DNA of 64,000 nt from positions 168,144,001 through 168,208,000 of the forward strand of contig OZ024740.1 in assembly GCA_964016885.1 (NCBI GenBank). The letters are read 5' to 3'. The notes under the pieces are model-generated. The model saw only the letters and a program-made list of their open reading frames with translations, did no database searches and was not told the origin of the DNA. This DNA comes from Eledone cirrhosa. Taxonomy: Eukaryota. This document shows positions 7,729-61,719 of the stretch, piece by piece (the stretch's first letter is position 1; every line of letters begins with the position of its first letter). Made by a program: the position numbers and the translations under genes.

Positions 7729-7889
7729 CTACACGCCGGAATACAGAAGGATCAGAAACTGAATTTTTCCGACTATTCTTCCATAACTCGTTGAGTAACA
7801 CCTCACCGTATGTCATCTCTATCTAGTGTAGTAATTAACCATTACTGCATTCAGGATAACCCTAAACATTTCTTGCATAACCTAATATA

Positions 7890-9530
7890 TATTGTTATAC
7901 TTTGGGTCATGTTACCAATAAGAAACACACCCGCCAGTTGCTTTCACTCCAATTTATTATAAATTAAATTATAAATTTAAAAATTTATAAATTTCCGGTT
8001 GGTTGGTCGGTTCCACAACCGGACGGTTGTTCATATATTGTCAAAGTTCTTTCGTCACACATTCTGTGACCTCTTCAGTGATTGGGGATTTTTTTCTTTG
8101 TTTTGTGCCTCTCCTTTGTTCTGTCCTACGCGATCTTGTTTTTGTCTGTGTTGTGTGTTTAGTTTGCGCATGTGTTACACCCGGGTGTCTGTGTGTGTTT
8201 TTATTTGTTTATTTATTTGTTTATTTACATGTTACTGGTTGGTTGTGTGCTCTATGTGTGTGTGTTTTCATTTTGTCCTTAATTGTAAGTTGTGATGTTG
8301 CTATTCCATTCATGTTTTCTATTTAATTTTGGTTGGAGTTCATTTATGTTTATTGCCTCTGTGATTTGTCTAAACATTGCGTCTTTTCTGTGTGTAGATT
8401 TTATTTTTATTTCTATGTTCTCTAATTTGCCCTTATGTTCTATTTTAGCATGTTGGTGGAGTACTGATGATTATTTTCTATCTTGAAGCTCTCGCCAGTG
8501 TTCATTTAATCGTTCTCCTATACTACGAGCTGTCTCACCTATGTACACTATATTCTTATCCTTACATTGTCCTTCAGTACATCTTATGCTATATACTATG
8601 TTTCTAATTTTGCAGTTAGTTTATAGATTATGCATTTCTTATCTATTTCTTATCTATACAGGGAGGTCTTTGAAAAGGGTATGTATTATTAATAAGTGTT
8701 TTTATGGAGGTACCTGGTCTATCTACTATCTTAATATTTAGTTTAAGTTTATCTAGGGCCCTTCTAAATTTGTAAGCTAGTTCACCTCTAGAGATTGTAT
8801 TGAACATTACACTCTGGTATTTATTGATATCATACCATGAGTTTATTCTATTAAACTTATCCTAGTTCTTTCTATTCTATTCCAAAATTTGTTCCTATAC
8901 AAGGAGCAGGTCCCATTTGTATCATTATTTACCATTTCTTCCCGAAAATAGGAAACATGGTAAATAATGATACAAATGGGACCTGCCCCTTGTTAACTGC
9001 AAAACTCATATTAACTGCAAAACTCCAACCAAAAGTAAATAGAAAACATGAATGGAATAGCAACATTACAACTTACAATTAAGGACAAAATGAAAACACA
9101 CACACATAGAACAAACAACCAACCAGTAACATGTAAATAAACAAATAAATAAACAAATAAAAACACACACAGACACCCCGATGTAACACATGCACAAACT
9201 AAACACACAACACACACAGAAACAAGATGGCGTAGGACAAAACAAAGGAGAGGCACAAAACAAAGAAAAGAATCCCCAGTCACTGAAGAGATCACAGAAT
9301 GTGTGACGAAAGAACTTTGACAATATATGAACAACCCTCCGGTTGTGGAACCGACCAACCAACCGGAAATTTATAATTTTTTAAATTTATAATTTAATTC
9401 ATAATAAATTGGAGTGAAAGCAAGTGGTGCGTGTGTTTCTTATTGGCAACATGACCCTCCCAAAGTATAACAATATCGGTTTCAACACACGTTTTCAGAT
9501 AAAGAATCTTGCTAAACAAATTCAGAAACG
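7890..9530 (-). mobile_element. 5' truncated Penelope-like retroelement: GIY-YIG endonuclease remnant plus inverted pLTR
   Basis: Minus 8620-8300 reads CKIRNIVYSIRCTEGQCKDKNIVYIGETARSM/ERLNEHW...KDAMFRQITEAININELQPKLNRKHEWNS. 7890-8342 is repeated inverted at 9019-9477, with a small hairpin at the junction (8900-8992). Confidence 0.9.
9279..9321 (+). ncRNA. Minimal hammerhead motif in pLTR (second copy on minus strand about 8040-8083)
   Basis: GTCA-CTGAAGA-GA-TCAC agaatgt GTGA-C-GAAA-GAAC-TT-TGAC. Stem I is GTCA/TGAC. Confidence 0.65.
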
Positions 9531-27140: not shown

Positions 27141-29120
<1,980 letters not shown>

Positions 29121-30462: not shown

Positions 30463-32010
30463 ACAGGTAGAGAAATATATCTTTTTTCTTTTTATTTATT
30501 TCTCTCTTTTTTCTTGGTTAGAAAATGATTAAAACGAAATATTTTACTTTGTGCGAAGTGTCAAGGTATCAGTTAATTTATTTATTAATTAACAATGGCA
30601 TTTATTTATTTATATATTTAATAATTGTCTATTACCAGTTTCAGCATTTTTATGCATTATCAAATGATAATAATATGTATTGGTGTAGAATGGTGGTGTT
30701 GGACATGTTAAAGAAATGGTGCAGAAAGAATAATATTATTTATAAACAAGGTTTATGAAGTGAAAAGAAAAAAGAAAAAAGGAACGTAATGTGGAGCATA
30801 ATAAGGCAATGTGAAAGAACAAATAATGTTATTTACAGGCATAGTTCTTGAAGATAAGCAGATCAAAATGTGTTAATATAGCAAGAGTGCTTAGTTGATC
30901 CATGATGGAGGCAAATGGTGAACTGGGGTTTGATATGATTTCCCTTTTTAGAGAGTTAATATGCAGGGGGAGGTAATTCAGGGTGGGAGAGAAATGGTGG
31001 ATGGTATTTAATTTATTTAAGAAAAAGGATTAGGTACGGTGTAACTCTTTAGAGAGACATAGGTATTTGTAAATGTTTCATTGTTCGTTCCAGTTTTAGT
31101 TTAGTCCGAAGTTTACTGCATTAAGTAGAGGTTGAAGATAGGATCAAATGAAGATAGGATCAAATCAATCCACGATGAGATTAATCAAAATTATTTTTGA
31201 AAAGCATTAGAAATGCGCAACTGGTAAAACTTAAAACCAAAACTTAATACTAACCAATACTATTACTAATTCTCACTTATTCCTAATTAAACTATTTTTC
31301 ACTGTGGACAATTTGTCAGCATTTTCTATTCCGTTTACCAATATATATATATATATATATGAGACATATCAAGCCTGGAGTCAAAAGATTAAATACATTC
31401 AATGCTATTGCCGTCATGATTGAGGACACGAATTAACTTCTAGTGTTGTAAAACTCTTAAAAATCTCAGAAGACATGCTTTCTTTTACGCAATCATGTTT
31501 ACGATCAGATCAGTCATATGAACAACCATCTCGTAATTGAATGTTAACTGTATATGTTTCAAAAATGGAGAGTGTAAACATATATACCAAAATAAACTTC
31601 ATCTAGACTTTGTAGATAATGAGAGGATAAAACTAAACTAAAACTATAAGAAATACTTTCAGATACAATGTTATTGATTTTATAGTGTGTATGACTCTGT
31701 GTCCACAATAAATACTAAATTGCATTATTTTATTTTCTCTCAGTGTACACACGAAGCATTAAGTTTGCTTTTAATCAGCACAAGGCCTGATATTTTGAGT
31801 AATATGGGTGTCGTTTTATGATTATTTTAACTGATGATTGATAACTAATGCATACCTTAAAAACTTCACAGTGAAATGTTGTTTTGCTTTAATGTTCATT
31901 TATATACTGTGTGTACAGCAGGAGTCGTCAACATCTTACTGACTAATATTAAATTACATTGTGTCTCGAAATATATATATGTAAATGCAATGATGATTGA
32001 TTATGCAGGC

Positions 32011-44842: not shown

Positions 44843-45155
44843 ATTAACACTTAACATTTAATATTCTATCATACTATTTCATTATAATACCATTATAAAT
44901 TTTAAAGGATTGTAAATAAAACGAGTAAATCAGACAAAGTTGGAATTCCTCTTATTAATATATATATATCCAAAAGTTCTATTTAAAGTTGTTGGGATAC
45001 AACAAGTAAATATTTTTATAACTGATATAAAGCACTCGACAAGTTTTTGGAGTAGATATAAGATATTAATAAATGGAAATTTAATGTGATATCCCTGAAA
45101 TATGTATAATGAAATAAATATGGTTTTATAAATATAGTTTCCATTTATTAATATC

Positions 45156-45197
<42 letters not shown>

Positions 45198-45299
45198 CTC
45201 CAGTTCCTCATAGAAACAACAACCCAAGCAGGAACTGGGCATATCAGAGTATTGACAAAGTTAACACCATGTGTACTCGTCTCTACCACACTAATTCGG

Positions 45300-45354
45300 A
45301 CTGCCTGAAGAGGTCACAGCCAAAGATGGCTGTCACCGAAATATATATAGCAGT
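45300..45354 (+). ncRNA. Minimal type I hammerhead ribozyme in non-coding pLTR fragment (45192-45500)
   Basis: ACTGC-CTGAAGA-GGTCACAGCCA aaga TGGCTGTCACC-GAAA-TATATA-TA-GCAGT: perfect stem I, long stem II with G10.1-C11.1, palindromic loop III. Confidence 0.88.
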
Positions 45355-45504
45355 AATAAACGAAGCTAAATTTTAAATATTTGACTTATTTATTTTAGTT
45401 TATTTTACATAACTCCGGAGTAACCAAACCAACCTGCGCACTTCGTCGAGTGCTCCAATCTGCATACTAAGGTGTCGGCAAATAACCAACATGAACTCAA
45501 AATT

Positions 45505-45690: not shown

Positions 45691-46490
45691 AAATAACCAA
45701 AAGTGTTCCTTACATGGCCCGGAAAGTGTTTTTGAGGGTAAGTTCAAGTCATAGTTCATTCTTCGCAAAAAAAAACGTGTTTTGATTTTGCAGTAGGTCA
45801 AGGGAGGTAACACTGGTTACTACTCCCCTTCCACAATCACCAAATCTCTCATTGGTATTGCTAAGCTATAGAAAAGTTTAATAGGTGGAGAAAAATACTA
45901 AATACGAGATTGTAGTGAAAGAATTTTATAAAGCCGACTTTACGGGGGGGGGTCTAACACCACTGCTATAGTTAGTTAGCAATCAGCCAATGCTATCTTA
46001 CAATGACAGGTTCAAAACAAAAATAATAAATTAATACTACAAAAATACTAATACGAAATATTAATTCAGAATACTAATACAGAAATACTAATACAAGAAT
46101 ACTAATAAAAAAATACCACTAAGAAATTTAAAAATCACAGAAATGGAGCAGCACCCAGAAATAAAACAATTTACTGGGGTCTAACACATCTGGTATAAAA
46201 AGCGTAATCGGCCAATTCTATCTTAAAATTAGGTGGGTGGGGGTACTGAGGCTACAGAGGACCGATGGGCTGCATCGGGGTAGGCGAAAAGGTGAAAAAA
46301 GATAAGGAAGGAGATCTGGGGTGGAAGGACTAGGAAGAGATGGGGAGAAGAAGGAAAAGATAAAAGAGTTACGTCTACCTTTGTAAGCAGGGGTAACCCC
46401 TTACAAAATCGGCAAGTGGGGTGTTTCAGCCCTTGTCTCCCCCCCCCCCCCCTCCACGGGTCATTATGGGGTTTGAGGGCGAGGTAAGTC

Positions 46491-48540
46491 CTACGCAATC
46501 TGTTTGCATGCAGTTACCAGTTCGTCTTTCTTATTTAGGAGTTGGTCCTTTGAAAACAGCATTTGTAATATTTCCTCTGAGCATATGTTACACGGACGGC
46601 GTCCTCCCGTGTAAGAGTTAGCTCTGGACAGTAAGCTCCAAGTGAGATTGTAGGTTATATTATTATCTTTGAGGTCCCAGATGTGGCCCGAAAGTGTAGT
46701 GGCATGACGCCGAGCCGGGTTTCGGAAAGTATGTCGGTGTAGGTAGAGCCGGGTCTTGAAGTCACAAGCGGTTAATCCTATGTAAGCTTTGTTGGGGATG
46801 TCCGTCCTCACGTTGCACTGGTACATCACATTACGATCAAGGCATCGGTTGTTGAGGGGGCAAAGGGATCTATCAGGACAGTTACACCTCCACTGCCGTC
46901 TAGGTTATTTCATCGATAGGGGTTGAGTTTTTTGTTGTTAGAGGAGACGATGTTTTGTGTGAAGTTAGGTGTGGTGCTGTAGGAGAGTTTGGTGGTGTTT
47001 TTGTTGATTATGTTGTGGTAGCGGTGTTGTAATGGGAAGTGTTTTTCGATGAGCCTAAAGAAGATTTTCCCGATAGGTGGTGTAACCTCGGTATTGTGGG
47101 GAGGATTGAACCACGTTACGATGCGTGAGCGGCGGTGTCGCCGCTGGTTCGGCTTATGGAAGCTGGATAATAGGATATTTCCACCCGGAAGCCACTCCGC
47201 TTGAGGTCCTGGTTGTAATAAGGCGCGTGTTCGTCGAATATCTGCTCATTAGCGGACAAACGAGATATGCGCAGGGAGATGTTTTTAACCAGGTTATTGG
47301 TGATGTGTCTAGGATGGTTCGACCGTTCGGTTTCCTGTATGGGTAGTACAGATCATTATCGAGGTTAAGGATAACGTCCAGGAAGTTTACTCGGGTTAGG
47401 GACGTTTGTAGGGTTATTTTAAATCCACAGTCGCGGAAGAAGCTGATTAATTGTTTACGGACCCGGTCTGTACTACTGTACCCGGTCTGTACTACCTTTT
47501 GAGGGTAAGGAGCCCATCATCAAGGTACAATCCACCGCCGAATGCAGGAAACATTTCGGTGAGTTTAAAAAGTAGGAATAATCCTATAAGATCTGTGACC
47601 TCAGCCGAATCCGTCGCGCCCATACTGACGTCGAAGGGGGAGTCAGGAGTTCTCTTTATCCATTTGGAGTTGTCGAAAAGTAGGACTGTCTTCCTGGCGT
47701 GGAGGATGATATTTCTTTCTTGGTCGGTGATGGGGGTGAGTGTTTCGGCAAAGTCCAAGGCGGCCGTAAGGAGCGGTAAGGTAATTGATGCATAGTAACT
47801 CTCTATGTCAAACTGGATTAATTTTGTGTCTCATTTGTCCTCCATATTGCTGAACCATGAGATTACTTCCTGGGTGTTGACCCATAAGCTAAGTCTCGCG
47901 TTTTGCTTAACTTTTGGTATAACGCAGTCTAGGATTTTTTTTACTAATTCTCCCTATGTCGGACTTCGTTGGGTTTACGGTCGAAGTCGGATTTGTCCTT
48001 CAGTGTGAAGTAGGAAGTCCGTGGGTCTAGGGGTTCAGTGCGGTCGGCGACCCCGAAGCTGGAGGTAATTTGTTGTCCATCTCGATTTATGTCCTCGATA
48101 CTTGAATGGTTAGCCTTTTTATAGGTGGAGTTTAGGCTGCTCCTGATCAGTGTGTGGTATCTGTCGGGGTTGACGAATTAGAGGTTTCCAGTTTTATCCG
48201 AGTGCACCATGATGTCGTTGGTGTTTTCATACTCTGTTAAATTGCTACGGAGTTTTTGTAGGAATCTGTTGTGTCTGGGTTTGAATATAATGCTCTTGAC
48301 CAGTTGGAAAAGGTCATTCTCGAAGGGTGAGAGCATAGGGTTCGGAGGAGGAGATTTGTAGGTATTAAATCCGAATCTCTCCTTGGTATCGAAGTCCTGA
48401 TTGTCGCAATATCTGTCGTAGAAAAAAGTTCTCCATCTTAGTCTTTTCGCAAAGAGGACGATTTTTGCATGAGCATCCGAAGGTAAAGTTTTCTGGGATG
48501 TTCTGGGTGGAGAAGTCAATGTTGTGTTTTCGGATGGTGC
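46491..48540 (-). pseudogene. Penelope/Naiad polyprotein pseudogene (RT plus C-terminal GIY-YIG endonuclease)
   Basis: FSTQNIP, KRLRWRTFFY, FGFNTYKSPP..LSPFENDL, SDKTGNL, IQFDIESYYASI, FDVSMGATDSAEVTDLIG, GLYLDDGL, IVTWFNPP, CNCPDRSLCPLNNRCL..VMYQC..YIGLTACDFKTR..TTLSGHIWDLK..CNICSEE..LNKKDEL. Several frameshifts and stops. Confidence 0.93.
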
Positions 48541-49732
48541 AGGTTAAAAAACTTGAGCTTGGCGGAAAAGTCTGGTAAGGCGTGGCAGGGTCGGAAAGTG
48601 CTCTGTTACGGAGGTAGGAGCTAGATAACGAAGGAAATGTGGTAAGGAACCAGATGGACCATAAAGCACCAAAGTACTCAATACTTAGGGTAATAGGAAC
48701 AAGTAAGACCCCAACGGCAGAGCTCAAGCCGTTTCGACGGCTAATTCTGGACTAAATAAGAATTTTTAGCCTGGTAAATAAATAGCCGAACTTCTCAGGG
48801 TTTAATTCCTTATATTGGAAGATAGTAATTGTCAAAAGGATTGGTAACAAATTTGTTGTAAAGACATGATTCTATCATGGCATTTGGTGGGAGGTAGAGG
48901 TAGCTGAACAAAGAGGGAGTGGGGAAAACCCAGTCAAGCGTTGAAAGTGAAATCTATACAGAAGATTCTAAGGATAGTGTATAGAAGGTCGAGAAAAGTA
49001 TACTGGAGAAGGGGAGGGAGCGTTGAAAGAATAGGTAAATCGAAAGGGAGTAAACAAAAAAAAACATTATAAAAATAAGGAAATAAATATATTAAAAAAA
49101 AGATATTTCTGGTTACTACTCCCCTTCCACAATCACCAAATCTCTCATTGGTATTGCTAAGCTATAGAAAAGTTTAATAGGTGGAGAAAAATATAAATAC
49201 GAGATTGTAGTGAGAGAATTTTATAAAGCCAGCTTTACGGGGGGGGTGTCTAACACAACTGCTATAGTTAGTTAGTAATCAGCCAATGCTATCTTACAGG
49301 TTCAAAACAAAAATACTAAATTAATACTACAAAAATACTAATACGAAATATTAATTCAGAATACTAATACAGAAATACTAATACAAGAATACTAATACAA
49401 GAATATTAATACAAAAACACAACTAAAAAATTTAGAAATCACAGAAATGGAGCAGCACCCAGAAAGAAAACAATTTACTGGGGTCTAACACATCTGCTAT
49501 AAAAAGCGTAATCGGCCAATTCTATCTTAAAATTAGGGGGGGCGTACTGAGGCTACAGAGGACCGATGGGCTGCATCGGAGTAGGCGAAAAGGTGAAAAA
49601 AGACAAGGAGGAGATCTGGGGTGGAATCACTAGGAAGAGATGGATGACGTGAACTTATCTTCAAAAACACTTTCCGGCCCATATATATGTATATATATAT
49701 GTATGTATATATATATATATGTATATATATAC

Positions 49733-54636: not shown

Positions 54637-55065
54637 GAAACCATGGTGAAATAAACCAAGCTTACCAAACCGAAGATTCTCACCAAACAATGTTAGACAT
54701 AAACGACAGTATTTTCGATTATTCAGTAACTGCTAGTGTGAGTGATCTTTCATCTGCACGCTCAAACCAACGGCCTCATCCAAACCTGTCATCAAGTGCA
54801 AGTAGTTGTGACATCTCAGAGACCGGCTCAGTACTTAAACATACGAACGGTGTTGATACGGTTGCAAATGAACCGTTGATGCATACAACAGCAACCACAA
54901 CAACAGCACCAACGACAACTGGCAGTCACTTATCAAACAACTTAAATGCCGGAATAACCCACAAGCAACAAACACCAATTGCTAAATTTGATAGTAAGGA
55001 GTCAGTTAAAAACATTAACAAACTCCAAATACCTCAGTTTTTTCTTCGAAAGTTTCGACGAAATG
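54637..55065 (+). CDS. Exon E of host gene (Ser/Thr-rich)
   Basis: ATAAAG acceptor, 429 nt open frame [16 protein letters not shown]...[12 protein letters not shown], donor G/GTAAGT. Phase 1 at both ends. Confidence 0.88.
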
Positions 55066-55550: not shown

Positions 55551-55874
55551 TATTGAAGTTTGCTTGAAGCATTGTGGAATAATAAAAAATGTTGGTCGTT
55601 TTGGAAGCCTCAACAATGTAGATTGGTAAATCTCCGGGTAACAGAATCCGGTGGTGAAGAGAGAGGAAATGTAGAATGAGATGTATAGTGTGTAGAAAAG
55701 AGCGTAAAAAATAAAAATAATAACACGAGATAGAGTTACCTTAGGAAAGATTTAATTGTCCCTATATTTCGGATTTCGCATCCATCAACTGGGGGGTTTT
55801 CCGATGGGGAAAGTTATCTGTCGGAGAGGAACGGTACGTGGACTCTGTGTTGTCCGCCGTTTGATATATATATG

Positions 55875-55938
<64 letters not shown>

Positions 55939-55945
<7 letters not shown>

Positions 55946-57721
55946 AAGTTAAATAAAAAGTCAAATGTTTAAAATTTAGCTTCGTTTATTACTGCTATAT
56001 ATATTTCAGTGACAGCCATCTTTGGCTGTGACCTCTTCAGGCAGTTTGAATTAGTATGGTATAGACAAGTATATATGTTGTTGAGGTGTATAATATTGTC
56101 AATACTCTGATATGCCCAGTTCCTGGTTGGGTTGTTATTTAACTGAGGAACTGGAGTCATATGAATTCAAACAAACGAATTTCAGTGTCAAAGGGCCTCT
56201 TCTCTTCTCATTGGTCAGTTATTAGAACATTCCTCATTCTAAGTGTTGTTATTGTTGGAGTTAGCTTAACAAATTGATAAAATGGTAGAAGGGACAAGGT
56301 GTTAAAGGAACAAAATAACAAAAAAGGTGTCAAACCTCCCATTGGTCAGTTCTGAGAGCATTCCTCAGTCAGAAGTCTATAGAACTCTTTCTGGGGTGAG
56401 GCTCCCTGTAGTGTTTGTGTTTTCTATTGTTAAGTACATTTGACCTCTACCATTATTTTGGTAGTGTTGTTGGTGTTGTGGTCAGCTTATGTCTTGCTGC
56501 TGCTAACAATTTAGAAGTATCCAGTGTGTGTTTTTTCTTCATCCCTCCTACCACAATCTCTCATAGTGGTGGTGGTGGGGGGGGGGGCTTCTTCCATGTA
56601 TATGAAGAAATATAAGGCAATAAATGAAGAAAACAGAAAATAAATAATATAATAAAATAATTAATATAATTTGTATAATTTGAAAATAAATAAATAGAGA
56701 ATAAAGAATAAATGAAAAATTGGTGAAAAAGTAATATGGAGAAGTGAAAAATAATGTAGGATAAAGTGTGTGTGTGCTATAACCAATCTCAAGGTCATAA
56801 ACTATTTATGACCTTGAGATTGGTTATAGCACACACACACTTTATCCTACATTATTTTTCACTTCTCCATATTACTTTTTCACCAATTTTTCATTTATTC
56901 TTTATTCTTTATTCTTTATTCTTTATTCTCTATTTATTTATTTTCAAATTATACAAATTATATTAATTATTTTATTATATTATTTATTTTCTGTTTTCTT
57001 CATTTATTGCCTTATATTTCTTCATATACATGGAAGAACCCCCCCCCCCCCCCACCACCACCACCACCACCACCACTACCACCACCACCACCACTATGAG
57101 AGATGGTGGTAGGAGGGATGAAGAAAAAACACACACTGGATACTTCTAAATTGTTAGCAGCAGCAAGACATAAGCTGACCACAACACCAACAACACTACC
57201 AAAATAATGGTAGAGGTCAAATGTACTTAACAATAGAAAACACAAACACTACAGGGAGCCTCACCCCAAAAAGAATTCTATAGACTTCTGACTAAGGAAT
57301 GCTCTCAGAACTGACCAATGGGAAGTTTGACACCTTTTTTGTTATTTTGTTTCTTTAACACCTTGTCCCTTCTACCATTTTATCAATTTGTTAAGCTAAC
57401 TCCACCAATAACAACACTTAGAATGAGGAATGTTCTAATAACTGACCAATGAGAGGAGAAGAGGCCCTTTGACACTGAAATTCGTTTGTTTGAATTCATA
57501 TGACTCCAGTTCCTCAGTTAAATAACAACCCAACCAGGAACTGGGCATATCAGAGTATTGACAATATTATACACCTCAACAACATATATACTTGTCTATA
57601 CCATACTAATTCAAACAGCCTGAAGAGGTCACAGCCAAAGATGGCTGTCACTGAAATATATATAGCAGTAATAAACGAAGCTAAATTTTAAACATTTGAC
57701 TTTTTATTTAACTTTATTTTA
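55939..57721. repeat. 1.8 kb near-perfect intronic palindrome with 3 nt loop; non-coding Penelope-type fold-back element
   Basis: Centre ..GGTCATAAA cta TTTATGACC.. at 56802-56804. Arms match out to 55939/57721. Hammerheads at 55991-56045 (-) and 57615-57669 (+). The right arm extends to about 57815, colinear with 45192-45500. TA tracts on both sides. Confidence 0.96.
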
Positions 57722-57815
57722 CACTACTCCGGAGTAACCAAACCAACCTGCGCACTTCGTCGAGTGCTCCAGCCTGCATACTGAGGTGTTGGTATACAAC
57801 CAACATATACTCGAA

Positions 57816-57887
<72 letters not shown>

Positions 57888-58139: not shown

Positions 58140-59255
58140 TAGTCAAAATTGCACGATAACAAAACCAATTTAACAATGAAAAAAAAAAGTAAATAAAATA
58201 TATATGAAAAACAACAAAATAAATTCCCCAATAGGGGGTGTGAACCACCCAGGGGCGACTCAGGTACCCCCACTAATCCTGAACCACCCGACGCTTCGGG
58301 GGTACCCGGGGAGGGCACCCCTGTACTCCTCAAACTAACCGGCCTACAGGCGCATGATCAGAGTAGGCCCACTGACACAGGCCATTCTTTAGCAAATGTA
58401 CTGGTGGGGATCACCTTCTCTCTCCACCCTCACCTTCCTTTCCAAGTGTAACTTAAAAAGGTTGATGAGGAATTGGTCCCCCGGTAGCACTGCCAAGCGA
58501 GGGATTTCTGGAAGTTATCCATCGTCCCCGGATCGAAAGTCCTCTGGAACAGACTGGTCAGTTCGACTTCGTCGACGCCCAGAACCTCTCCGAGTGCGTT
58601 ATCGCACTTGCCCGCCACTAATCCTCTATAGAACACGAGAGTGGAAGTTCCACTGACAGCATTACCCGCCTGGTAGAGGGCAGTGAGTGCCTAGCAATAT
58701 TCCAGATGCTAGGCACCTGGTCTCGGTCTCTTCTTGACCCAGGACTTCAGCTCAGTCGAAGAAACGAGCTGAGGAAAGGCCCGTCTGACAAACAGCGACC
58801 ACACCTGTTCACCGTTTAAGCAGACTATCTGGAGATACCACAGCCTCAGCGTATGTTTGCGCATTATTAGCCACGGCATGTCCAGCCCTCCACGTAGAGG
58901 GTGCTGGCAGCAAATAGACCTCCTCACCAATGGAACCTGTCCCCTCCTCAAGTATTTTGAATAGGAGCCGTTCCAATTTGGCGAGGCGCGAAGGACAGGC
59001 GGTGGTAAATGACAGAAGCGATGTACGCGTTCGCCACCTGACCTTTCAGTGATATCTTCCTCGCGTCCCGTTTCTGGGTGAGAGTGGCTACTCTGATCCT
59101 CACCTTGTCCCAATTCTTATCCACCTGGAGATCTAGTCCTAACCAAACCCCGAGCAACTTTACTGGTCCGTCGACGCTGTTAGTCGGCTTGGACTTCCTT
59201 CTCCAGATGCCGAGCTACAATTCCACTGACTTTTCCGGGTTAAGTTTCGATGCCG
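58140..59255 (-). mobile_element. L1/Tx1-type LINE ORF2 3' fragment, decayed
   Basis: KLLGVWLG..QVDKNWDKV..RKISLKGQVANAYIASVIYHRL, HPLRGGLDMP, DNFQKSLAWQCYRG. A diverged relative of 60738-61719. Confidence 0.9.
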
Positions 59256-59642: not shown

Positions 59643-59982
59643 GCGACATCAAGGAAACTCTTACTGATGACGGCAGCATGTCTTTTGACATCGATGATAC
59701 TATTTTGACAGTAGAGTCTGTTGAAAGTGATGCAGCTCATATGAGAAGGCCACCACCATCTAAGAGAGGTGCAACAGGCCAAATAAGGAGTGTCGATGAA
59801 ATAAAGAAACAGTTAGATAACCTAACGGTTATGTACTATGAGATGTCACGTATGGTTAATCAAAAGCAAAGCAGTCACGCCCGAAGACCATGGAGCATCG
59901 CCAGTTCGGAGGCCAGTTCATTAATACGAGAAAATCAAGTACAAAAGAATAAATCTGTACGAAACAAAGTCTTACTAACACG
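59643..59982 (+). CDS. Exon F of host gene
   Basis: TTTCAG acceptor, phase 1. DIKETLTDDGSMSFDIDD..EIKKQLDNLTVMYYE..RRPWSIASSEASSL..KVLLT. Donor CG/GTAGGT, phase 2. Confidence 0.9.
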
Positions 59983-60324: not shown

Positions 60325-60712
60325 TAATTGTTTCTACTTTAGGCACAAGGCCAGCAATTATCCAGTGCATTACTGGTACTTTATTTTATCGACCCCGTAA
60401 GGATAAAAGGCAAAGTCTACCTCGGCGGGATTTGAACTCAGATCGTAAAGGGACGTAATAATAATGATAATAATGATTATTATTATCAATATTAGGGTAT
60501 TGGATTGGCAGAATCAGTAGAGAGCCGGACACCATGCTTTGCAGCATAGAGTTACGTCCCTTTGCGTTCTGAGTTCAAATCCCGCCGAGGTTAACTTTGT
60601 CTTTCATCCTTACCTTACGAAGTCGATTAAATAAAGCACCAGTAATGCACTGGGGGTCATTAAATCGATTTCCCTTCAAATTGCTGGCTTTGTCCCTAAA
60701 GTAGAAACAATT
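60325..60712. mobile_element. Head-to-head inverted SINE pair
   Basis: Minus copy 60325-60457 and plus copy about 60495-60712, separated by about 40 bp of AAT/TAT repeat. Confidence 0.88.
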
Positions 60713-60737
60713 ATTGTTATTATTTAGTAGTAGTAGT

Positions 60738-61719
60738 CGTCTCCTTGACGGAACTGCAGTCCTGGGTCAAGCGAAGCCCGAGAGGGAGCGCTTGGAGACT
60801 GGAATGTCTTCAGGCCCTCACAGCCCTCGACCAGTCGGGCAATGTGATCGGTGGAAACTCCACCTTGGCGTTCTATAGAGGATTAGTGGAGGGGAAGAGC
60901 GACGACGTACTTGGGGAAACTCTAGGCGTCGACGAAAATCAACTAGCCAATCTCTTCAGAAGAACTTTCGAGCCGGGGCCTATGGACAACTTCCAGAAAT
61001 CCCTGGCCTGGCAGTGCTACCTAGGAGCTTTGCCAGTTCGGGATAAACTCTACAGGCATGGAAGTGCCGTCAGCCGGGCATCTCCGAGATGCGTGCAGGG
61101 CGACGCAACCGTCCTTCACGCACTCGTCCAGTGTCCGAGCATTGCTGACTTGTGGGTTTATGTCGAACACTTGCTGTCGCGTGTAGGACGGATCCGGCTA
61201 TCAGCTGAGTCCATCGTGAGGATTGCCCCGCCCTCTTCCTTTAGCCAGGAAGGGCAGGCAGTTTTTATCTGTCTGGTGGCCATGGCGAAAGAGATAGTAT
61301 GGTGGACACGTTTGAAAGGGCTGAAGACGAGCACTTACCTCTTCGGTGATGCCCTGATAAAACTTTTTCATCAGGGCATCAGGGTAGAGAGGGAAGTGCT
61401 CTCAGGGCATCAGGGTAGAGAGGGAAGTGCTCTCTTCCCAGCATTTTGTTGAAAGATGGGTGAGAGAGGCAAGAATGGCTGGAAGAGGGCACTTGCCCTG
61501 GTGGTCAGGGTCACCGTGGCTTTTTTTAATGGGCTTTCTCCACGAATATCCCTCGGAAGTCTCCCTCCCTATTGGAGAATATTTCATTGTTTCTTTTTTG
61601 TTACATCCTCTGTTTTTGTTTTTTTACACGCAGAAATGCCCATTTGTACCGTCCTGTATTGGCCTGTATTGTCCTTAATGTCTTACTTTGTGTAAACCCT
61701 TGTGGTTAATAAAGAAAGC
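60738..61719 (+). mobile_element. 5' truncated L1/Tx1-type LINE with zf-RVT region, 3' UTR and 19 bp TSD
   Basis: NFQKSLAWQCYLGALPVRDKLYRHG..SPRCVQGDATVLHALVQCP. AATAAA near the end. ATTATTTAGTAGTAGTAGT at 60719-60737 and 61720-61738. A 31 bp tandem duplication at 61371-61432 shifts the frame. Confidence 0.93.

What the first reader, a model, noticed from the sequence alone, without database searches (positions are those of the whole stretch)
55939..57721. 1.8 kb intronic hairpin with 3 nt loop, capped by a hammerhead at the base of each arm
Seen: about 870 bp arms differing by only a handful of substitutions, a short TTCTTTA-type indel and microsatellite length. No coding capacity. A hammerhead lies near each outer end. 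It sits in the intron between exons E and F, so the pre-mRNA would form a very long dsRNA. Established: inverted pLTR junctions are a hallmark of Penelope integration, and long dsRNA is an ADAR and Dicer substrate; coleoid cephalopods edit heavily. Inference: a recently formed non-autonomous Penelope fold-back that could be a hyper-editing or endo-siRNA source and a cruciform-prone fragile site.
Basis: partly seen in the sequence, partly recalled or inferred. Interest (0 to 1): 0.72.

Follow-up and report, generated by a model that had tools for sequence, protein, structure and literature searches.

The report
Penelope-type retrotransposon palindrome in an intron
This 1.8-kb intronic hairpin is one long, non-coding insertion of a very common Penelope-like jumping gene, likely built by two DNA copies of one RNA started at two fixed sites and joined head to head; it would make a long double-stranded RNA if the intron is transcribed, but editing or small RNAs were not shown.

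Summary
The hairpin is present: arms 55939-56801 and 56805-57721, loop CTA, 10 substitutions, 33- and 21-nt microsatellite indels, and a minimal hammerhead near each outer end. It is the non-coding 3' end of a 4.2-kb Penelope-like element with Hydra-clade motifs and at least about 2,000 insertions here. The pairing of a tail-less inverted arm with a tailed direct arm is this family's common form and is published for Penelope-like elements. The fold point is unique to this locus, so it is not a replicating non-autonomous family. Both arms share one lineage. Junctions across 31 loci favour two primings on one template over one self-folding cDNA; this scan reached that reading before, on other DNA. 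Only one hammerhead lies on the host's sense strand; it carries a private stem I mismatch and would be buried in the duplex. Editing, small RNAs and fragility are untested. Arm length is unusual, the kind is ordinary. Open leads: variants mirrored in both arms but found nowhere else, and new (CT)n runs at tailed ends.

The parts
55864..55938 (.). (TA)n left flank, the insertion target
   Evidence: (TA)n at both ends of nearly all sampled copies
55939..56801 (-). Inverted, tail-less arm: 3' UTR plus pLTR of the element, ending at the family's fixed internal end
   Evidence: same end joined to TA at 2,093 exact matches genome-wide
55991..56045 (-). Minimal type I hammerhead motif, intact 5-bp stem I, antisense to the host gene (core 56040-55996)
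56802..56804 (.). 3-nt apex loop CTA, at an ATAT self-complementary site of the family sequence; unique to this locus
56805..57721 (+). Direct arm: 5'-truncated 3' UTR plus pLTR, no RT or endonuclease sequence
57615..57669 (+). Minimal type I hammerhead motif, sense to the host gene; private T>A at 57617 breaks stem I; predicted cut after 57664
   Evidence: (T in 29 of 29 other copies)
57670..57675 (+). AATAAA directly after the hammerhead (function untested)
57722..57817 (+).
   Evidence: tailed junction at 1,985 exact matches
57818..57882 (.). (CT)11 then (AT)n right flank; the CT run is in neither the template nor the left flank
54637..55065 (+).
   Evidence: a 281-nt contig of run X4 lies wholly inside it
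59643..59982 (+).

Best explanation
The hairpin is a single non-coding, 5'-truncated insertion of an abundant Penelope-like retrotransposon with Hydra-clade motifs, likely formed by two reverse transcripts of one template, primed from the two cut strands of a (TA)n target and joined head to head. Shown: family identity, (TA)n flanks, two fixed outer ends 96 nt apart (tail-less 57721, tailed 57817), variable inner ends, and a common lineage of both arms. Inferred: the left target end primed at the internal site and the right end at the tail end; the trailing enzyme displaced the first cDNA; both stopped near 56805 and were joined through the ATAT palindrome. The arms have since drifted by 5 substitutions each. 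If the host intron is transcribed, the + strand would fold into a duplex of about 860 bp, an expected ADAR substrate and a by-product rather than a selected device. Its one sense hammerhead is predicted to be inactive in that context.
For: Long copies are 4.2 kb with RT and C-terminal GIY-YIG sequence, an upstream partial pLTR and inverted 5' pieces. There are 2,093 tail-less and 1,985 tailed ends. Of the first 100 listed tail-less ends, 45 have an inward-facing tailed end within 6 kb by exact match (one of these pairings is spurious). Arms within a locus differ by 1.6% (15 loci) against 4.0% between loci (136 pairs), and share rare variants 14 times more often. Window arms differ at 10 of about 807 sites, against 21-30 differences to each of 29 other copies. 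Of 31 simple junctions, 12 are symmetric, 9 have the direct arm longer, 7 the inverted arm longer and 3 no overlap; the last 10 cannot come from one cDNA folding on itself. Overlap of 2 nt or more at 17 of 31 junctions, against 16% by chance. PMC11167929 shows in vitro two RT start sites bounding the tail, with both strands cut and extended. PMC8557442 describes the inverted 5' copy and one-sided tail.
Against: This locus is itself symmetric, so self-priming fold-back (PMC3846280) fits it equally well on its own. Seven substitutions and a 10-nt deletion shared by both arms are rare or absent in the family. Three were searched genome-wide and no locus carried two of them, so the source copy is not in the assembly; post-insertion arm-to-arm copying could explain part of the arm similarity. 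The 31 junctions mix loci picked by similarity and by position, and BLAST boundaries may inflate overlap. No uninterrupted full-length ORF was seen among 20 long copies. Pfam GIY-YIG scored 20 bits, under its 22.6 cut-off, and no Pfam RT family was hit.
Confidence: 0.72

Rival explanations
1. Same element, but the palindrome was made by self-priming: one cDNA folded at the ATAT site and copied itself back to the internal end, where the endonuclease resolved it.
For: Symmetric apex at a self-complementary site; 12 of 31 junctions symmetric. It is the published reading for head-to-head Penelope palindromes (PMC3846280 passages). It would mirror first-strand errors in both arms.
Against: 10 of 31 junctions have inverted-arm sequence that the direct arm lacks, or no overlap. 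Seven mirrored substitutions in about 810 nt is high for one round of RT (own knowledge of RT error rates).
Confidence: 0.13
2. The perfect palindrome is partly secondary: an older insertion was homogenised, or one arm rebuilt from the other, by gene conversion or cruciform repair midway through its life.
For: Mirrored variants are locus-private. The 57237 29-mer has 4 hits (this locus twice, a non-sibling fold-back twice); the deletion 22-mer has 3 hits (this locus twice, one non-sibling); mirrored variants of L031 and L086 have 2 hits each, their own arms. Shared singletons: 9 in 3,081 nt at symmetric loci against 11 in 8,766 nt at asymmetric loci.
Against: A lost, unfixed or unassembled source copy gives the same pattern. 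Most private changes are arm-specific (145 against 20 shared). This can coexist with the best explanation.
Confidence: 0.1
3. Assembly or chimeric-read artefact.
For: No listed contig bridged the apex in three runs of one sample (24 of 62 pieces shown; inconclusive by the tool's own warning).
Against: An artefact would mirror the tail and flank; instead the left arm stops exactly at the end seen 2,093 times. The arms carry 5 private substitutions each, with the other arm matching the family majority.
Confidence: 0.03
4. A selected regulatory hairpin that controls the host gene through editing, siRNA, splicing or ribozyme cleavage.
For: Intronic and near-perfect duplex. Octopus hyper-editing is high, and Penelope is heavily edited in lizard (PMC5625713 passages). 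The sense hammerhead, not the antisense one, has the stem I mutation.
Against: Even decay of both arms, no compensatory change, unique apex, hundreds of similar by-products genome-wide. The stem I mutation is one event.
Confidence: 0.04

Closest known systems
Hydra clade of C-terminal EN+ Penelope-like elements (PMC8557442; Hydra-1_Obim and Penelope-13_HM in its File S1)
   Same: RWK, DKT, CxCX5C, flanking CxxC/CxH, (TA)n target and hammerhead; Penelope-13_HM has a 5'-truncated inverted copy of 966 nt.
   Different: This family is 4.2 kb with a 3' UTR of about 1.2 kb (Hydra generally under 3 kb). Its hammerhead differs from the one listed for Hydra-1_Obim, so it is likely another family.
Inverted-pLTR insertions with a one-sided tail in EN+ Penelope elements (Adineta vaga Penelope, PMC3846280; overview PMC8557442 Fig. 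2 legend)
   Same: Head-to-head inverted 5'-truncated copy, palindromic junction, tail on one end only.
   Different: Tail 96 nt rather than 30-40 nt; arms about 860 nt covering 3' UTR, not only the pLTR; no TSD can be read in (TA)n.
Poseidon of Anolis carolinensis in vitro (PMC11167929)
   Same: Two fixed ends bounding the tail, AT-rich targets, hammerhead upstream of the tail.
   Different: That paper tests a different clade, and in the parts read it does not model the inverted arm.
L1 twin priming (recalled, not checked in a call)
   Same: Two primers from opposite target strands on one template, inversion, junction microhomology.
   Different: Here the second start site is fixed, and the two cDNAs usually cover the same sequence, giving an inverted duplication.
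Non-LTR retrozymes (bioRxiv 10.64898/2026.07.22.740005, part 1 of 5 read)
   Same: Type I hammerhead derived from a PLE pLTR, no coding sequence.
   Different: Retrozymes are head-to-tail tandem arrays; this is one head-to-head pair.

Membership tests
EN+ Penelope-like element | RT plus GIY-YIG endonuclease in full-length copies | tested here: met
   YRDD-type RT region with 10 homologues at E<=1e-20; GIY-YIG E 8.8e-4, below Pfam's cut-off; ORFs broken in the copies seen
EN+ Penelope-like element | Partial-tandem pLTR upstream of the ORF | tested here: met
   L038, L040, L041, L047
EN+ Penelope-like element | Inverted 5'-truncated copy and one-sided tail | tested here: met
   tail 96 nt, longer than the published 30-40 nt
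EN+ Penelope-like element | Hammerhead motif in the pLTR | tested here: met
   custom scan and fold; Rfam did not detect it
EN+ Penelope-like element | Hammerhead self-cleavage | not testable with these tools
   needs an in vitro cleavage assay
EN+ Penelope-like element | Target-site duplication | tested here: inconclusive
   both flanks are (TA)n
Hydra clade | RWK motif and DKT in place of DKG | tested here: met
   RRMRWKAF and ADKTNN in L033; criteria from PMC8557442
Hydra clade | CxCX5C linker, no CCHH motif, CxxC and CxH around the conserved E and N | tested here: met
   CNCRNPESC, CKLC..E, N...CRH; only one Cys between VY and YIG
Hydra clade | (TA)n insertion preference | tested here: met
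Hydra clade | Generally under 3 kb | tested here: not met
   about 4.2 kb; a typical trait in the paper, not a diagnostic one
Hydra clade | Placement in the Hydra clade by RT phylogeny | not tested
Replicating non-autonomous fold-back family (MITE-like or retrozyme) | Other copies share the fold point and both termini | tested here: not met
   apex unique; ends asymmetric; fold points vary
Non-LTR retrozyme | Head-to-tail tandem units each with a hammerhead | tested here: not met
   head-to-head pair on opposite strands
ADAR or Dicer substrate in vivo | A-to-I edited reads or 21-23 nt RNAs over the arms | not testable with these tools
   no RNA holder listed

The most novel reading that the evidence does not exclude
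Hydra-clade insertions record two undescribed behaviours. First, the telomerase-related RT stutters at the tail start site and writes a new (CT)n run of up to 30 units at about four in ten tailed ends. Second, the arms of long palindromes keep copying each other after insertion. Together with twin priming this would make the family a factory of hundreds of self-maintaining dsRNA substrates and new microsatellites in a heavily editing animal.
Probability: 0.2. Interest if true: 0.6.

Novelty: new member of a known kind. Interest (0 to 1): 0.27.

Why it matters
How Penelope-like elements make their inverted ends is stated as open in PMC8557442 and PMC11167929. This family offers about 2,000 insertions with two fixed outer ends and variable inner ends, a ready test set for twin priming against self-priming. 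If intronic copies are transcribed, such palindromes could supply part of the unusually high dsRNA potential reported for octopus (PMC5625713). This single locus adds little beyond being a long example.

Tried and rejected
Rfam: no hammerhead hit; the miRNA-family matches at the apex are far below gathering scores and reflect the perfect stem. Run search: no RNA holder listed. Run X4 (kind not on record) had one 281-nt contig inside exon E, too little to show expression or splicing. Apex test: no bridging piece among 24 of 62 listed, filter active, inconclusive; X5 gave 0 contigs, which may be false. My first guess, Penelope/Poseidon clade, was dropped after the motif check. ADAR marks copied from the template: 3 of 17 listed mirrored singletons are A>G, and of 10 arm differences 2 are A>G in element sense, so no editing signature. 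Source or sibling copy: two candidate loci were non-siblings. Spacer versus duplicated-region singleton density was uninformative because few copies cover the spacers. (CT)n as TSD: rejected, 0 of 9 left flanks; as inherited subfamily trait: no clustering, p=0.58; correlation with age: none, rho 0.15, p=0.40. Paper searches. 'twin priming' with 'Penelope' gave 3 listings, none on this by title or abstract start; most subscription papers are not searched. bioRxiv supplements were not seen.

Full report
Observation. The inverted repeat is at the stated place. The left arm is 55939-56801, the loop CTA is 56802-56804 and the right arm is 56805-57721. There are 10 substitutions in about 863 aligned nt and two microsatellite indels of 33 and 21 nt. 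A custom scan found type I hammerhead motifs at 57620-57664 (+) and 56040-55996 (-), among 4 sites in the window against 0.1 in simulations. Rfam did not detect them. The hairpin lies between predicted exons 54637-55065 and 59643-59982 of a + strand gene. Its splice phases agree through to a final SAM-domain exon (Pfam SAM_1, E 5.7e-9). Splicing was not observed.

What it is. A search of the window's own 3.0-Gb genome with the right arm gave 2,909 first-look candidates; 40 were scored, and the best other copies were 95-97% identical. In 27 of the 29 other fetched loci the match reaches the apex position; one folds back 44 nt further up and nearly all the rest run on into shared upstream sequence. 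Twenty of these loci were extended. The longest define a 4.2-kb element: partial upstream pLTR, RT and C-terminal GIY-YIG sequence, about 1.2 kb of 3' UTR, pLTR with hammerhead, and a tail. No uninterrupted full ORF was seen. The protein has RWK, DKT, CNCRNPESC and CKLC/CRH motifs and lacks the CCHH pattern. These are the criteria for the Hydra clade in PMC8557442 (passages read). Its supplement lists an octopus Hydra family with a different hammerhead, and a Hydra polyp family with a 966-nt inverted 5' copy (rows read). Two of ten protein homologues are named from Argonauta, which fits an octopod host; I did not establish the species.

Architecture. The window copy contains only 3' UTR and pLTR. 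Both ends are fixed in the family: 2,093 exact matches of the tail-less end joined to TA and 1,985 of the tailed junction. Of the first 100 listed tail-less ends, 45 have an inward-facing tailed end within 6 kb by exact match, 32 of them under 500 nt away. Of the first 30, 9 are short symmetric fold-backs. Inner ends vary, with a hot spot at the palindrome TCATATGA near window 57495-57499. The window's apex is unique at <=2 mismatches. Long arms with a tiny loop are uncommon but not alone: L048 (about 940 nt) and C1:387.7 Mb (about 1,690 nt, 10-nt loop); L091 has arms of about 1,970 nt with a 95-nt offset. None of the 10 widest pairs among the 45 was of the tiny-loop long type.

Mechanism. Arms at one locus share a lineage: 1.6% apart (15 loci) against 4.0% between loci (136 pairs), with 14-fold more shared rare variants. 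The window arms share 14 changes against the family majority and have 5 private substitutions each. Of 36 junctions, 5 complex ones were set aside. The other 31 split into 12 symmetric, 9 direct-longer, 7 inverted-longer and 3 non-overlapping; 17 of 31 overlap by 2 nt or more, against 16% by chance (mixed sample). PMC3846280 reads such palindromes as self-priming (passages), but one self-folding cDNA cannot give the 10 inverted-longer or non-overlapping cases. Two primings at fixed sites explain all four classes. They match the two RT start sites and two-strand extension shown for Anolis Poseidon (PMC11167929, parts 1-3 of 4 read). Strand displacement and the joining step are my inference. I noted this reading; the scan's earlier notes, seen, reach the same reading for other elements and are not independent proof.

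Unexplained. Variants mirrored in both arms are private to their locus. Three window variants were searched: 4, 25 and 3 hits, with no other locus carrying two of them. Mirrored variants of L031 and L086 hit only their own two arms. A lost source copy or later arm-to-arm conversion would both explain this. Separately, 662 tailed ends carry five or more CT units against 966 with one, although the template reads on without a CT run in 4 of 4 tandem copies. The run is not a TSD and not clustered by lineage. However, 14 of 73 CT-seeded edges of other AT runs are also long, against 13 of 36 here, so replication slippage is not excluded.

Function. On the host strand only the right hammerhead is encoded. 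It has a private T>A at 57617 (T in 29 of 29 others); its predicted best fold is not the hammerhead, and the constrained fold is -7.5 against -12.6 kcal/mol for the left copy. In the full intron it would pair with its own complement. Editing is expected if the intron is transcribed: PMC5625713 reports high hyper-editing and dsRNA potential in octopus, and heavy editing of Penelope in lizard (passages). No RNA run was listed, so this is untested. A perfect AT-rich stem of about 100 bp around a 3-nt loop can extrude a cruciform (own knowledge), yet the centre has survived 1.2% arm divergence.

Artefact. The contig test at the apex was inconclusive. The precise family ends, the one-sided tail and the balanced private substitutions make an artefact unlikely.

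Verdict. A real, long example of a published insertion form, from what appears to be an unlisted Hydra-type family. Interest 0.27.

Noticed in passing
window 45192-45503 (+): Second, older copy of the same family (87% identical), pLTR plus tail only, starting at the family's inner-end hot spot, flanked by (TA)n, with an intact hammerhead at 45305-45349 on the host gene's strand.
   Followed up: partly
window 7889-9476: Another Penelope-like inverted insertion of a different family: arms about 450 nt at 95%, spacer with a decayed Cys-rich GIY-YIG-like frame, hammerhead-like core at 9283 (+) and 8078 (-), extension on the right end only.
   Followed up: partly
window 27452-28862: Inverted repeat of about 575 nt at 97% with a short extension at the right end only and (TA)n flanks; no hammerhead core found; a related piece lies at 31185-31361.
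   Followed up: partly
window 46491-48543 (-): Decayed ORF of a second Hydra-type element (37-52% identity to L033 pieces, CNCPDRSLC linker), between direct repeats 45813-46343 and 49109-49643.
   Followed up: partly
window 57818-57839 and genome-wide: (CT)n run at tailed ends only: 662 ends with five or more units against 966 with one; possible RT stutter or slippage.
   Followed up: yes
family position equal to window 57495-57499: Hot spot of inner arm ends at the palindrome TCATATGA (16 arm starts in one 10-nt bin); may mark the pLTR transcription start (inference).
   Followed up: partly
window 29540-29492 (-): Unrelated type I hammerhead-like motif with a similar TATGTA stem III, inside a short inverted segment shared with 44958-45179.
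   Followed up: no
window 58483-59116 and 60700-61452: Two fragments of another retroelement family in opposite orientation (75% over 285 nt) on either side of exon F; they could also pair in the pre-mRNA.
   Followed up: no
L081-L082 (just downstream of the window): Tandem array of a roughly 1.95-kb unit repeated several times after the SAM gene.
   Followed up: no
L006, L010, L011 (G000:C2, 10.6-12.7 Mb): Three near-identical loci with the same insertion and flanks, about 1 Mb apart: segmental duplication or assembly duplication.
   Followed up: no
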